This document shows positions 26,622-31,380 of a stretch of DNA of 41,468 nucleotides, in pieces; positions within the stretch are counted from its first letter, which is position 1; every line of letters starts with the position of its first letter. The notes beneath the pieces were generated by a model. The model was given only the letters and a program-made list of their open reading frames with translations, was not told where the DNA came from and searched no databases. This DNA is from Escherichia phage HK106. A program made the position numbers and the translations under genes. The stretch lies in the sequence record NC_019768.1; one strand, given 5' to 3'.

Positions 26622-27226
26622 TAAGCAGCCGCTCCTTCTAATTCGTCTCGTCTGATGTTGTAAACGTCCTGCGCTTTGTGCTGCTCCGGTGTGCCTTCGA
26701 GCATCTTCCACGCTTTGGCGAACGCCTGTTTAAGCTCTTCCACGGTGTTTTTCTGCAATGCTGCGTCAGTGAATGCTTTTAGAACCTGTTCAGGTGTAGG
26801 TGATGGTTTTGATTGCTTTGCTGCTGCGTTCTGCTGATGTTTATGCTCGTCTGTATCTGCATCTTTCGCATCATCTATGCCGAACAAACCATTGAGGCAA
26901 TACTTGCGTGCATAAGAGCTTGTAGCTCCAGTAACTTGTGCAGAATCCATTCCTTTCTTGCTTTCTTCCTCTCGTGCAAGAGCGGTTGCCGTATGACTGT
27001 TTTCGCCATCGGTAATAGTTGCCGTGGCTTTCACGTAATACCGATCACCAATCAACACAACTTCATCGCTGATTGATAAAAACAGGCCATTCAGTAACGG
27101 CTTAACGCCTTCAAGAATGTCTTCGCAGCTTCTGTATTTATATTTGCCGAATGAGTTGTACTGATTCTTTGGCGCGTTCAGATTCTCCTGAATAGCTGCC
27201 AGTCTTGCGTAAAATTCTTTGCTCAT
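26621..27226 (-). CDS. erf: Erf-family single-strand annealing protein
   Basis: 201 aa from ATG at 27226; MSKEFYARLAAIQENLNAPKNQYNSFGKYKYRSCEDILEG… closely resembles P22 Erf as I recall it. Confidence 0.85.
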   Translation of the reverse strand: MSKEFYARLAAIQENLNAPKNQYNSFGKYKYRSCEDILEGVKPLLNGLFLSISDEVVLIGDRYYVKATATITDGENSHTATALAREEESKKGMDSAQVTGATSSYARKYCLNGLFGIDDAKDADTDEHKHQQNAAAKQSKPSPTPEQVLKAFTDAALQKNTVEELKQAFAKAWKMLEGTPEQHKAQDVYNIRRDELEGAAA

Positions 27227-27482
27227 ATGATTGTTCTCAGAATGGACACGGCCCAAGGAAATAACGCTGATTTAATACTTCGACTCGGGACAAATTAAGG
27301 CATACCCGCATTCCTTCGCGGTCGCCATTATGGCGATACCAGAGAGCTTTCTGCGTGTACATGCGTCTCTGTAACTTGCTCTCCTTCACTGTGGTTGCAA
27401 GTGACATGAATATCTCCTTCGTTACCGATTAATTCTTTCATCTGACGAATGAATTCTTCGTCTGACCAGTTATCTGCAAAAC

Positions 27483-27635
27483 TCATTTCCTGCGATACCA
27501 CGGAAGGTTGATAGCTGATTTCATCGCTTTATTTGCTTCAAGCCACATTTTGGAATCACCAATAAATCTGGCTATTACTGCTTTGTTCTGTGCAGCACGA
27601 AGCATCTGGTGATTGATGGCTATTTCATTGCGCAT
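27483..27635 (-). CDS. Kil-like host-killing / cell division inhibitor protein
   Basis: 50-aa hand-translated ORF (MRNEIAINHQMLRAAQNKAVIARFIGDSKMWLEANKAMKSAINLPWYRRK) overlapping the cIII 3' end; resembles lambda Kil core; below track cut-off. Confidence 0.5.
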   Translation of the reverse strand: MRNEIAINHQMLRAAQNKAVIARFIGDSKMWLEANKAMKSAINLPWYRRK

Positions 27636-27754
27636 AACGCCTCCAGTTGTTTCTTTGCTGCTCTGATTAATTGTTTAACTCGGCGTGATAATTCAGATTC
27701 GTGCGGGTAGAAAGCGGACATGACGCCGCTACCCGCGAGCTGAAAGTGCATCAT
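27620..27754 (-). CDS. cIII: cIII-like protease inhibitor
   Basis: 44 aa from ATG at 27754 with SD AAGGAG; MMHFQLAGSGVMSAFYPHESELSRRVKQLIRAAKKQLEAL… cIII/C3 pattern. Confidence 0.7.
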   Translation of the reverse strand: MMHFQLAGSGVMSAFYPHESELSRRVKQLIRAAKKQLEALCAMK

Positions 27755-27818
27755 GGGTAACTCCTTATATTTGATTGCATAACGAAAACGCCTCGAGTGA
27801 AGCGTTATTGGTATGCAT

Positions 27819-27844
27819 ATAAAAAAGCCCTCACACTGGAGGGC
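27819..27844 (-). terminator. intrinsic terminator (tL-like) upstream of cIII
   Basis: minus strand GCCCTCC-agtgt-GAGGGC followed by TTTTTTAT. Confidence 0.45.
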
Positions 27845-27980
27845 AAAGAAGATTTCCAATAATCAGAACAAGTCGGCTCCTGTTTAGTTACGAGCGACAT
27901 TGCTCCGTGTATTCACTCGTTGGAATGAATACACAGTGCAGTGTTTATTCTGTTATTTATGCCAAAAATAAAGGCCACCA

Positions 27981-28922: not shown

Positions 28923-28985
28923 AGTATCACCGCCAGTGGTATTTATGTCAACACCGCCAGAGATAATTTATCACCGCAGATGGTT
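28923..28985 (-). promoter_or_regulatory. OL1-OL2-OL3 operators and PL promoter (lambda type)
   Basis: TATCACCGCCAGTGGTA (28925-28941), CAACACCGCCAGAGATA (28949-28965), TATCACCGCAGATGGTT (28969-28985); minus-strand -35 TTGACA and -10 GATACT. Confidence 0.85.
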
Positions 28986-29136
28986 ATCTGTATGTTTTTT
29001 ATATAGATTTATTTTTTTGCAGGGGTGTGTGGCTTGGGAGGTGATCGAGAGATCTGAATTGCGATGTTTAGTGAGTTGTATCTATTAATTTTCAAATAAA
29101 TACAATTGGTTATGTGTTTTGGGGCGAACGTGAGGC

Positions 29137-29162
29137 AAAGAAAACCCGGCGCGGTGGCCGGG
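29137..29162 (-). terminator. tImm-like intrinsic terminator ending the cI-side operon
   Basis: minus strand CCCGGCC-accgc-GCCGGG followed by TTTTCTTTG, 7 nt after the stop of the 141-aa ORF. Confidence 0.55.
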
Positions 29163-29169
29163 TTGGAGA

Positions 29170-29595
29170 TTATTTTCTAGATGATGTTGGGGACCAAGGT
29201 AACGTTATAGTATCTAACACTGTGTTTTTGAACATATTTTCAAAAACTGTTTTTGTACATACATATACATAATTTTCAAAAAACCAAGCATTTTCATTAT
29301 AAAAATCCTCAGTTACTTCTTCATCGAGGTCACACTCAAATGTTAGTGTCAAGGTAGCCTCTGCCTTGAACAATACATCCTCACCATCATCAAAATCTTT
29401 TTTATCGCGAGGGAAACCAGTTATCGATGGCTTAACTTCAATAAAGAGCCAATTTCCATCTTCATCTTTTTGAGGAACAACGTGATGCTCAGAAAATTTT
29501 AAGCTATATTTTCCGCCTTCAGAATTATCACTGTCGTCGATAAAAAGGGAAGAACCCTCGAGATCAAATCCCTTAAAGCGAATTTTATCAAGCAT
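29170..29595 (-). CDS. hypothetical acidic protein, 141 aa, third gene of the hicAB cassette
   Basis: ATG at 29595 overlaps the hicB stop (TGATG); strongly acidic (about 29 D/E against 15 K/R); AT-rich codon usage; no family recognised. Confidence 0.6.
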   Translation of the reverse strand: MLDKIRFKGFDLEGSSLFIDDSDNSEGGKYSLKFSEHHVVPQKDEDGNWLFIEVKPSITGFPRDKKDFDDGEDVLFKAEATLTLTFECDLDEEVTEDFYNENAWFFENYVYVCTKTVFENMFKNTVLDTITLPWSPTSSRK

Positions 29596-30068
29596 CAATG
29601 TGGCACTCCGTTGTCTACTGAAACTTCCCAATAGGTCTCTTCTGTACGTCTACGGGATGAGAAGAAAGTAACTTCTCTAACATCCCTCGGTTTTTCAAAG
29701 TGGTAGTGAACCTCTTTTTTCCCATTAACTGACTCACTGACAGCCTGTTTTACATAATCGTTTAAAGTCATATTCTTAGCTTTAGCAGCTAAATATGCTT
29801 TTTTATGCAGGGATTCACCTATCCGGATGTTAAACGAACCACTCATTGTCTTATCTGGAGATTTTCCTATCTCTTCACAAGTGGAGAGGTAATCGTCCAC
29901 GGCCTCCTCAAAGGCTGCACGGAGTTCTGCAACCGTTGCACCCTCATAAGTGACGAGATCATTTATACATTCGAGTTTTCCATGCATCACCCCATCTTCA
30001 AATGAAATGCTGGAGCTACCATAGTAACCTTTGTATTTCATCAAGTTATTCATGATCATCAATCTCAT
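29595..30068 (-). CDS. hicB: HicB-family antitoxin (RNase H-like fold plus RHH DNA-binding region)
   Basis: …MKYKGYYGSSSISFEDGVMHGKLECINDLVTYEGATVAELRAAFEEAVDDYLSTCEEIGKSP…SFNIRIGESLHKKAYLAAKAKNMTLNDYVKQAV matches HicB pattern; overlaps hicA 3' end. Confidence 0.75.
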   Translation of the reverse strand: MRLMIMNNLMKYKGYYGSSSISFEDGVMHGKLECINDLVTYEGATVAELRAAFEEAVDDYLSTCEEIGKSPDKTMSGSFNIRIGESLHKKAYLAAKAKNMTLNDYVKQAVSESVNGKKEVHYHFEKPRDVREVTFFSSRRRTEETYWEVSVDNGVPH

Positions 30069-30300
30069 CTAACAGCTGTTTAACTTCTTCCAAGACGTAC
30101 CTTTTGAGGGTGTTTTCAGGATGAGGCTCATGAAAAATGACCAATCTATCAACACGTTGGTTGTAAAATTTACGGCCAGAACCTCGTTTAGCATTCAAAA
30201 GCTTGAAGCCATACTGGTTCATGAGAGTAACGAACTCATCCCAAGTAAAATTTTTGGGTAAGCCGTCTAACTTTGACTTTAGCTTTTCCTTTCTTCCCAC
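30046..30300 (-). CDS. hicA: HicA-family mRNA interferase toxin
   Basis: 84 aa, GTG start; …GSGRKFYNQRVDRLVIFHEPHPENTLKRYVLEEVKQLL fits the HicA/YcfA pattern; precedes hicB as in hicAB operons. Confidence 0.7.
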   Translation of the reverse strand: MGRKEKLKSKLDGLPKNFTWDEFVTLMNQYGFKLLNAKRGSGRKFYNQRVDRLVIFHEPHPENTLKRYVLEEVKQLLDEIDDHE

Positions 30301-30326
30301 GAAGGATACATCCTCTGTTAAAGGTA

Positions 30327-30349
30327 GTGCAACTGAAATCTAGTTGCAA
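30327..30349 (-). promoter_or_regulatory. inverted repeat, candidate HicB operator in the hicA promoter region
   Basis: TTGCAACT-n7-AGTTGCA(c) palindrome about 30 bp upstream of the hicA start in an AT-rich spacer. Confidence 0.35.
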
Positions 30350-30460
30350 GCTATGCTATCTATAGACAAAATGTTTCATTGTTATATCAGAAGATACCCG
30401 ATCTGTTTCACCTTCAACTACTATAATTTGTTATAAGCTATCAACCGGTGGAACTGCGAA

Positions 30461-30559
30461 TTAGCCGCTGGGTGTTGCGTATCCATCGATGATAAACCAT
30501 GCCATAAACCCCATAGCTACGATGAACACCAAGATCGGAAACACTATACCAATTCTCAT
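30461..30559 (-). CDS. possible 32-aa hydrophobic peptide (single TM)
   Basis: hand-translated MRIGIVFPILVFIVAMGFMAWFIIDGYATPSG; weak SD; between cI and hicA. Confidence 0.25.
   Translation of the reverse strand: MRIGIVFPILVFIVAMGFMAWFIIDGYATPSG

Positions 30560-30663: not shown

Positions 30664-31380
<717 letters not shown>

What the first reader, a model, noticed from the sequence alone, without database searches (positions are those of the whole stretch)
29170..29595. Unassigned acidic 141-aa protein translationally coupled to HicB
Its start codon overlaps the hicB stop (TGATG), and it is strongly acidic (about 29 D/E against 15 K/R) with no motif I can assign. It could be a third component of the HicAB module (effector, sensor or decoy) or a DNA-mimic-like anti-restriction protein that happens to share the operon. 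Canonical hicAB operons are two-gene.
Basis: inference. Interest (0 to 1): 0.7.

Follow-up and report, generated by a model that had tools for sequence, protein, structure and literature searches.

The report
SecB-like chaperone of phage HicAB module
The unassigned acidic 141-aa gene is most likely a very divergent SecB-type chaperone, which makes this lambda-like phage's HicA/HicB pair a three-part toxin-antitoxin-chaperone system of a kind already known to defend against other phages; it is not a DNA mimic.

Summary
A 141-aa ORF lies on the minus strand at 29595..29170. Its ATG overlaps the hicB TGA (TGATG), and it is acidic (30 D/E, 15 K/R, pI 4.36). It is a real gene: orthologue dN/dS is about 0.1, and it is always found directly after hicA-hicB.

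The window is lambda-immunity phage mEp234/HK106. The cassette sits where lambda has rexAB, between cI and the Timm terminator.

HicB carries a roughly 42-residue, aromatic-rich C-terminal tail predicted to be disordered. This tail diverges in step with the third protein, as expected for a chaperone-addiction element.

The best reading is a HicAB-type TAC system with the 141-aa protein as chaperone and likely phage sensor. HicAB-SecB TACs are published, as is a HigBAC system at this same lambdoid locus. A 2025 GenBank record already calls this gene "HicC chaperone". I rate it a new member of a known kind, of moderate interest. The DNA-mimic idea is not supported.

The parts
29170..29595 (-). 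hicC: the 141-aa acidic protein. Predicted SecB-fold chaperone of the module.
29595..30053 (-). hicB antitoxin, 152 aa from the ATG that overlaps the hicA stop (GenBank variants start at 30041 or 30053). It has an N-terminal HicB domain, a ribbon-helix-helix (RHH) DNA-binding domain and a C-terminal tail.
   Evidence: Pfam PF05534, 66.9 bits. PHROG 9151 'HicB-like antitoxin' covers only residues 6-124 of the 157-aa ORF. AF2 model.
29598..29723 (-). Codons for the HicB C-terminal tail, residues 111-152 (GKKEVHYHFEKPRDVREVTFFSSRRRTEETYWEVSVDNGVPH). Candidate chaperone-addiction (ChAD) element.
   Evidence: No secondary structure after residue 110, and pLDDT below 50 for residues 126-152. Median tail length is 42 aa across 105 family members: 74 have E.H.H, 72 have a W in the last 25 residues, 80 end in His. 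The tail is shorter in a 132-aa HicB from a two-gene locus. The tail and HicC diverge in parallel, faster than the HicB core.
30046..30300 (-). hicA toxin, 84 aa, GTG start. Its stop overlaps the hicB start by 8 nt.
   Evidence: Pfam PF07927, 32.1 bits (cut-off 27). PHROG 8887 'toxin'. Alignment.
30328..30348 (-). Perfect inverted repeat TGCAACT-N7-AGTTGCA, 28-48 nt upstream of the hicA start. Candidate HicB operator overlapping a weak -35 TTGCAA / -10 TAnnnT promoter. It marks the 5' edge of the conserved cassette.
   Evidence: Unique in the window, 0.02 expected by chance. The arms are invariant in 7 cassettes whose upstream flanks are otherwise unalignable. Operator and promoter function are inferred. 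The consensus promoter scan did not call it.
29143..29164 (-). Intrinsic terminator (Timm), 6 nt after the hicC stop. It ends the cI-hicABC transcription unit.
   Evidence: Terminator scan: 8-bp stem, 6 GC pairs, T-run. Annotated Timm in EF120460.1. The hairpin is conserved after hicC in all 7 aligned loci, and homology ends after the T-run.
30664..31377 (-). cI repressor (lambda immunity), upstream on the same strand. hicABC occupies the position that rexAB has in lambda.
   Evidence: ORF. Annotated cI, with pRM upstream, in EF120460.1 and PV340539.1. No convincing terminator lies between cI and hicA.

Best explanation

Proposed mechanism:
1. In the lysogen, the three overlapping genes are transcribed with cI from pRM, and probably also from their own HicB-controlled promoter. 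They are translated in a coupled way.
2. HicB neutralises the HicA RNase-family toxin. HicB also carries a roughly 42-residue, disordered, aromatic-rich C-terminal tail that makes it unstable or aggregation-prone.
3. HicC, a SecB-fold and presumably tetrameric holdase, binds that tail and keeps HicB functional.
4. When a superinfecting phage produces large amounts of a nascent structural protein that competes for HicC's client groove, HicB is lost and HicA is freed. The infected cell shuts down, which excludes the invader.

Shown here:
- gene reality
- obligate linkage to hicAB
- a predicted SecB fold closest to a TAC chaperone
- the disordered HicB tail
- parallel divergence of the tail and HicC
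- the location in a known defence hot spot

Inferred by analogy and not shown here:
- physical binding of HicC to the tail
- chaperone dependence of HicB
- HicA toxicity
- antiphage function and its trigger
For: Fold:
- The AF2 model has a b1-b4 sheet plus a long helix.
- The Foldseek PDB top 18 hits are all SecB or SecB-TA, TM 0.55-0.69.
- The BFVD top hits are phage-encoded SecB proteins.
- pI is 4.36 against 4.26 for SecB.

Linkage:
- Every HicC homologue found has hicA and hicB immediately upstream on the same strand, with stop and start overlapping or abutting. This covers 11 IMG/VR loci, Pantoea and metagenome loci.
- Starting instead from HicB homologues also leads to HicC-family third genes of 17-30% identity. 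These are in Enterobacter and E. coli prophages, a Vibrio integrase/AlpA/VapE island and a wastewater contig.

Antitoxin tail. A 132-aa HicB with a short tail sits in a two-gene locus.

Parallel divergence of tail and HicC: for L010, identity to the window is HicB core 59%, HicA 49%, tail 26%, HicC 25%.

Precedent:
- TACs built on HicAB with a SecB-like chaperone have been demonstrated, with the HicB ChAD at residues 119-159 (PMC5105189).
- HigBAC lies in the same locus downstream of cI in a lambdoid prophage and senses lambda gpV through aromatic patterns.
- CmdC senses capsid protein.

Annotation: GenBank PV340539.1 and PV340542.1 label the gene 'HicC chaperone'.
Against: - There is no sequence-level link to SecB. 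None of 56 family members hits Pfam SecB (PF02556) at E<=1.
- The family profile finds nothing among PDB sequences.
- hhalign against E. coli SecB or a small, shallow SecB profile gives probability below 1%.
- The fold assignment rests on a model from a 10-sequence alignment. The five models varied in mean pLDDT from 45 to 79.
Tail binding is therefore untested.
- HicA lacks the canonical catalytic His at the position aligned to E. coli H23 (GSGRKF), so its activity is unverified.
- PADLOC has no model for any of the three proteins.
- The link between tail and third gene is contrasted with only one clean two-gene counter-example. Two other short HicBs lie at contig ends and are uninformative.
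- I found no paper with experiments on this system.
Confidence: 0.75

Rival explanations
1. HicC is a SecB-fold protein tied to HicAB, but it does not work as an antitoxin holdase. It might bind HicA directly as a second antitoxin or activator, act as an adaptor that delivers HicB to a protease, or chaperone one of the phage's own proteins, with the operon position serving only for co-regulation.
For: The fold and the linkage do not by themselves say which partner is bound. No complex model could be made. The conserved E-x-H-x-H motif and terminal His of the HicB tail are not features reported for the ChADs in the papers read. The sequence family is separate from recognised SecB.
Against: The part of the module that diverges in step with HicC is the HicB tail, not HicA or the HicB core. 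The tail is disordered and aromatic-rich, like the validated ChADs. The best structural match is specifically the ChAD-bound TAC chaperone. The cassette also occurs outside lambdoid phages, in a Vibrio island and in the E. coli nin region, which argues against a role in one phage's own assembly.
Confidence: 0.13
2. The three-gene module is a bona fide TAC, but its biological role is prophage or host addiction and stress response, not exclusion of other phages.
For: The original TAC of M. tuberculosis was described as stress-responsive (PMC3581621 and PMC5105189). HicAB modules can act as plasmid addiction systems (PMC11878559 abstract). No defence phenotype is documented for mEp234 in the papers searched.
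Against: The cassette replaces rexAB at the variable defence locus downstream of cI, where the defensive HigBAC also sits. Its other contexts are also mobile-element hot spots. Both E. coli TACs tested so far are antiphage.
Confidence: 0.25
3. This is the first reader's alternative: an acidic DNA-mimic or anti-restriction protein that happens to share the operon with hicAB.
For: Net negative charge, pI 4.36. Small size. Phage origin.
Against: No DNA-mimic fold appears among the PDB or BFVD matches; every hit with E<=1e-3 is SecB-like or in the related SP1558/gbs1413 group. The charge equals that of SecB. The gene is never found without hicAB, and its start is coupled to the hicB stop in all loci. 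It is expressed from the lysogenic immunity operon rather than an early lytic operon. The acidic residues lie largely in a variable b3-b4 loop, with insertions in homologues, rather than in a conserved surface array.
Confidence: 0.02

Closest known systems
Mmet-TAC: HicAB plus SecB(TA) of Methylomonas methanica MC09 (Bordes et al. 2016, PMC5105189)
   Same: Gene order is toxin HicA, antitoxin HicB, chaperone. That HicB is about 159 aa with a roughly 41-residue C-terminal ChAD (residues 119-159). Here HicB is 152 aa with a roughly 42-residue tail.
   Different: The Mmet chaperone was found as a SecB homologue. The mEp234 family is not detected by the Pfam SecB model or by profile comparison. 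The mEp234 system is phage-borne. I did not have the Mmet sequences, so no direct alignment was made.
HigBAC of E. coli NT1F31 (Mets et al., bioRxiv 10.1101/2024.02.24.581848)
   Same: It occupies the same genomic slot, the variable locus downstream of cI in a lambdoid prophage where lambda has rexAB. It has a SecB-like chaperone and an aromatic-rich disordered ChAD. The chaperone doubles as the phage sensor, recognising lambda gpV.
   Different: The toxin-antitoxin pair is HigBA rather than HicAB. Its ChAD is 96 residues with four aromatic motifs, against about 42 residues here. Experimental proof exists there and none here.
M. tuberculosis TAC chaperone Rv1957 (PDB 5MTW)
   Different: Only 13-14% identity. 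It partners HigBA1 in an actinobacterial chromosome.
Housekeeping export chaperone SecB (E. coli 1QYN/5JTL, H. influenzae 1FX3)
   Different: 9-13% identity and no profile-level similarity. HicC is encoded in a TA operon rather than in yibN-grxC-secB-gpsA. Any SecA-binding function was not assessed and is not expected.
CmdTAC (Vassallo, Doering and Laub 2024, PMC11618068)
   Same: It shares the tripartite logic. The chaperone senses newly made phage capsid protein, the antitoxin is lost and the toxin blocks translation.
   Different: The toxin is an mRNA ADP-ribosyltransferase, not a HicA-family protein.
Lambda RexAB
   Same: Positional analogue. It is co-transcribed with cI, ends at Timm, and is expressed in the lysogen to exclude other phages (annotation; established lambda biology).
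   Different: The proteins and the mechanism are unrelated.

Membership tests
Toxin-antitoxin-chaperone (TAC) system | Three co-oriented, tightly linked genes in one operon: toxin, antitoxin, chaperone | tested here: met
   hicA and hicB overlap by 8 nt. hicB and hicC overlap in TGATG. One terminator follows hicC. The arrangement is conserved in all loci examined.
Toxin-antitoxin-chaperone (TAC) system | The third protein has the SecB chaperone fold | tested here: met
Toxin-antitoxin-chaperone (TAC) system | The antitoxin carries a C-terminal, disordered chaperone-addiction (ChAD) extension that is absent from two-gene relatives | tested here: met
   The tail spans residues 111-152, has no predicted structure and has low pLDDT. 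It is present in HicBs of three-gene loci and shorter in the HicB of a two-gene locus. That comparison rests on a single clean two-gene locus. The tail is aromatic-rich (Y, F, FF, YW).
Toxin-antitoxin-chaperone (TAC) system | The antitoxin needs the chaperone to neutralise the toxin, and the chaperone binds the ChAD | not testable with these tools
Parallel divergence of tail and HicC is only indirect support.
SecB protein family (Pfam PF02556) | Significant match to the SecB sequence model or profile | tested here: not met
   0 of 56 family members match at E<=1. hhalign probability is below 1%, although the SecB profile available was shallow. The family profile finds no PDB sequence.
SecB protein family (Pfam PF02556) | Tetramer (dimer of dimers) with client-binding grooves | not testable with these tools
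   Only monomer prediction was available.
HicA toxin | Match to PF07927 above the gathering score | tested here: met
   32.1 bits against a cut-off of 27. PHROG 8887 'toxin', E 2.7e-34.
HicA toxin | Catalytic His in the G-S-x-H segment (E. coli HicA H23) | tested here: not met
   The aligned segment is GSGRKF across this whole subfamily. An H-[EC]-P-H-P motif is conserved instead. The alignment uses a single reference that I recalled from memory and did not verify, so this result is tentative.
HicB antitoxin | Match to PF05534 and a ribbon-helix-helix C-terminal domain | tested here: met
   66.9 bits against a cut-off of 21. Helices at 80-92 and 97-110 follow a strand in the model.
DNA-mimic / anti-restriction proteins | A fold or surface resembling known DNA mimics | tested here: not met

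The most novel reading that the evidence does not exclude
HicC and its roughly 50 known 50%-identity clusters may be a separate, sequence-orphan lineage of SecB-fold chaperones dedicated to HicAB modules on prophages and satellites. This lineage would be invisible to Pfam, NCBIfam, PADLOC and RefSeq annotation. It would act as the phage-protein sensor of a defence system that replaces RexAB in a lambda-immunity phage. TAC-type immunity would then be substantially more widespread than SecB-homology surveys indicate. The His-rich E-x-H-x-H ... terminal-His tail of HicB would represent a ChAD recognition code different from those described so far.
Probability: 0.45. Interest if true: 0.55.

Novelty: new member of a known kind. 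Interest (0 to 1): 0.35.

Why it matters
The result turns a gene that RefSeq lists as a 'hypothetical protein' into a testable part of a defence-type module. The gene has been sequenced since 2007 in mEp234/HK106. The host phage is very tractable because it has lambda immunity and grows on E. coli K-12.

It also shows that sequence-based searches for SecB homologues miss a whole HicAB-associated chaperone family. Counts of TAC systems are therefore likely to be underestimates.

If the chaperone is the sensor, as in HigBAC and CmdTAC, this system offers a third, easily manipulated case for asking how a holdase distinguishes its own antitoxin tail from phage structural proteins. It also lets one ask what a lambdoid prophage gains by swapping RexAB for a TAC.

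Tried and rejected
- Sequence assignment of the 141-aa protein failed in every library. Pfam, NCBIfam, PADLOC and PDB sequences gave nothing, with either the single sequence or the profiles. PHROGs gave only an unnamed family.
- Profile-profile comparison with SecB was insignificant. My last large protein search, seeded with E. coli SecB, listed only relatives of 83% identity or more. The SecB profile was therefore too shallow to be a fair test.
- An exhaustive profile search of 1.84 billion representatives widened the family only to about 60 clusters. None of them carries a known domain.
- The afdb50 fold library was unavailable.
- The search for related loci with the broad alignments failed for lack of conserved stretches. 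With the close alignment it found one locus in the species-representative genomes.
- Two short HicB variants that might have been two-gene controls lie at contig ends, and one is frameshifted. I discarded both as uninformative.
- The third gene in a P. aeruginosa prophage is not matched by the HicC HMM or by Pfam.
- Literature searches for HicC, mEp234, mEp506 and the PV3405xx accession numbers found no paper behind the 'HicC chaperone' annotation.
- The DNA-mimic, nuclease and fragment-of-a-known-gene readings were rejected on fold, linkage and purifying selection.

Full report
**What is there**

The window matches the lambdoid phage mEp234/HK106 at 100% identity over 29100-30350.

On the minus strand the gene order is as follows:
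- pRM
- cI (31377..30664; lambda-type repressor)
- a 363-nt spacer
- hicA (30300..30046; GTG start; 84 aa)
- hicB (30053..29595; 152 aa)
- the ORF in question (29595..29170; 141 aa)
- the Timm terminator (29164..29143)
- oL/pL (pL at 28951..28923)

hicA and hicB also overlap, by 8 nt. The protein has 30 D/E and 15 K/R, pI 4.36. The only correction is that the gene lies on the minus strand.

**It is a real gene**

- It matches PHROG 19522 end to end, E 7.5e-82.
- It has orthologues of 57-99% identity in Citrobacter, Klebsiella and Pantoea and in viral and metagenome contigs.
- Among these orthologues, non-synonymous differences per site are 0.09-0.27 against synonymous differences of 0.52-0.87. 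dN/dS is 0.05-0.12 where synonymous sites are not saturated.
- The conserved N-terminus ML[DE]KI.F fixes the ATG as the start.

**What it is**

Sequence methods give nothing.
- Pfam, NCBIfam, PADLOC and PDB sequences return no match.
- The same holds for a 10-sequence and a 56-sequence family profile.

The AlphaFold2 model was built on the 10-sequence alignment (mean pLDDT 79, pTM 0.73). It has four long antiparallel strands (5-19, 28-44, 47-62, 76-88) followed by a short helix and a long helix (96-101, 103-122). This is the SecB topology.

Fold searches agree:
- Foldseek agrees. Its 18 best PDB chains are all SecB or Rv1957, E 1e-5 to 4e-4, TM 0.55-0.69.
- In BFVD the best hits are phage proteins annotated SecB.

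I verified that the E. coli SecB sequence I used is identical to PDB 5JTL. No DNA mimic or nuclease appears among the fold matches.

**Linkage**

Every locus retrieved through the 141-aa protein has hicA and hicB directly upstream on the same strand, with the hicB stop overlapping or abutting the third gene's start. These loci are 11 IMG/VR contigs, Pantoea formicae and several metagenome contigs. They carry different repressor, cro and N alleles.

Working instead from HicB homologues (590 hits, mostly 146-165 aa), I again found a third gene of 141-150 aa with no Pfam domain. It occurs in:
- Enterobacter prophage immunity regions
- an E. coli prophage next to the Q antiterminator gene
- a Vibrio parahaemolyticus integrase/AlpA/VapE island
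- a wastewater contig

These third genes are 17-30% identical to the mEp234 protein. They share N-x-W-[FY]-F-x-N ... K ... [LF]-P motifs and are recognised by the family HMM.

An exhaustive profile search of 1.84 billion representative proteins found only about 60 clusters, about 50 of them 130-155 aa long.

The exact mEp234 cassette is rare. It is in 6 of 5426 complete E. coli genomes, always chromosomal, and PGAP calls the gene 'hypothetical protein'.

**The antitoxin has the matching feature**

The defining trait of TAC antitoxins is a C-terminal chaperone-addiction (ChAD) extension (PMC5105189).
- PHROG's HicB profile and the Pfam HicB domain end about 30-40 residues before the C-terminus of this HicB.
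- The AlphaFold model of HicB (105-sequence alignment) shows the N-terminal domain and the ribbon-helix-helix helices up to residue 110. Beyond that there is no secondary structure, and pLDDT is below 50 for residues 126-152.
- The tail (GKKEVHYHFEKPRDVREVTFFSSRRRTEETYWEVSVDNGVPH) is rich in aromatics.
- Across 105 relatives the median tail length is 42 residues. 74 have E-x-H-x-H, 72 have a Trp in the last 25 residues, and 80 end in His.
- A 132-aa relative with a short tail sits in a plain two-gene hicAB locus. That is a single clean counter-example.
- The tail and the third protein diverge together, and faster than the rest of the module. Identities to the window are:

| Locus | HicB core | HicA | HicB tail | HicC |
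|---|---|---|---|---|
| L010 | 59% | 49% | 26% | 25% |
| L012 | 64% | 40% | 21% | 26% |

. This is what a co-evolving recognition pair would show.

**Cassette boundaries and expression**

Seven cassettes with unrelated upstream flanks become alignable about 55 nt before the hicA start. They share an invariant inverted repeat, TGCAACT-N7-AGTTGCA (window 30328-30348), which is unique in the window with 0.02 expected by chance. The repeat lies between a weak -35 (TTGCAA) and a weak -10 (TAnnnT). I read it as a candidate HicB operator and promoter, which is an inference. The consensus scan did not call a promoter there.

Downstream, homology ends right after the terminator hairpin. No convincing terminator separates cI from hicA. 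By analogy with lambda cI-rexA-rexB-Timm, and in line with the EF120460.1 annotation, the module should therefore also be transcribed from pRM in the lysogen.

**How it most likely works**

The best-supported reading is a HicAB-type toxin-antitoxin-chaperone system.
1. The SecB-fold protein holds the disordered HicB tail, keeping the antitoxin functional and HicA silent.
2. Loss of chaperone capacity liberates HicA.
3. In the two E. coli TAC systems studied, the chaperone is the infection sensor. HigC binds lambda major tail protein gpV through the same aromatic pattern as the ChAD (bioRxiv 10.1101/2024.02.24.581848). CmdC is titrated by newly made T4 capsid protein (PMC11618068).
4. HigBAC lies at this very locus, downstream of cI where lambda has RexAB.

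I therefore infer that mEp234 hicABC is a superinfection-exclusion module. Binding, chaperone dependence, HicA toxicity and the trigger are all untested.

One caution concerns HicA. This HicA subfamily has GSGRKF where E. coli HicA has its catalytic GSNH, and it conserves H-[EC]-P-H-P instead. The catalytic mechanism may therefore differ. That alignment used one reference sequence recalled from memory.

**Membership versus resemblance**

As a TAC system, the tested defining features are met: operon architecture, SecB fold of the third protein and a ChAD-like extension. The functional features cannot be tested here.

As a member of the SecB sequence family, it fails:
- 0 of 56 members match PF02556 at E<=1.
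- hhalign probabilities are below 1%.

The SecB profile I could assemble was shallow. The insignificant alignment that hhalign produced does line up beta4 and helix alpha1 in both proteins. The accurate description is 'SecB-fold chaperone of a separate sequence family' rather than 'SecB homologue by sequence'.

**Novelty**

- HicAB-SecB TACs have been published since 2016.
- A TAC at this lambdoid locus was published in 2024.
- A 2025 GenBank resequencing of mEp234 and mEp506 already labels the gene 'HicC chaperone'. I found no paper behind that label.
- The 2007 and 2012 records and RefSeq say 'hypothetical protein'.

This is a new member of a known kind. Its one distinctive feature is a chaperone lineage that sequence models do not recognise. 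Interest is moderate at 0.35. A TA or defence specialist would not be surprised, but the system is unusually tractable and the family is uncatalogued.

Noticed in passing
window 30461-30559 (minus strand): A 32-codon ORF encodes a very hydrophobic peptide (MRIGIVFPILVFIVAMGFMAWFIIDGYATPSG) in the spacer between cI and hicA. It has no Pfam hit. A Pantoea prophage has a 32-aa gene with a PF28021 YoaK hit at the equivalent position between its repressor and hicA. It may be a small membrane protein expressed with cI.
   Followed up: partly
window 30046-30300 (hicA); loci L008, L010, L012, L016, L021-L029: This HicA subfamily lacks the canonical catalytic histidine. The segment reads GSGRKF or GSRRKF where E. 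coli HicA has GSNH. An H-[EC]-P-H-P motif is invariant, and the three-gene versions add a roughly 20-residue N-terminal extension.
   Followed up: partly
L030:2438-2887 (P. aeruginosa prophage, next to an S24 repressor): A third gene of 149 aa follows hicA-hicB. It is not recognised by the HicC family HMM or by Pfam. It contains SLYPYLR, reminiscent of the SecB LFPYAR motif. It may be a second orphan chaperone lineage paired with the same HicB family.
   Followed up: partly
window about 26800-27980 versus L001 (PV340539.1) 738-1706: The 2025 mEp234 record carries a 969-nt gene annotated 'TolA protein' between cIII and the ORF next to N. This window lacks it. The offsets of Kil and of the hic genes between the two sequences differ by about 940 nt. 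The window therefore corresponds to the shorter mEp234/HK106-type sequence.
   Followed up: no
L014:2001-2460 and L015:2001-2345: Two apparently tail-less HicB proteins (119 and 114 aa) lie at contig ends. In L014 the tail is present in another reading frame, which indicates a frameshift. These short database entries are assembly or frameshift artefacts, not natural two-gene variants.
   Followed up: partly
window 29100-29165: The Timm terminator and about 40 nt beyond it are shared at 90-98% identity with HK97, 933W and many Stx phages that lack hicABC. The terminator therefore belongs to the common lambdoid backbone, and the cargo upstream of it is what is exchanged.
   Followed up: no
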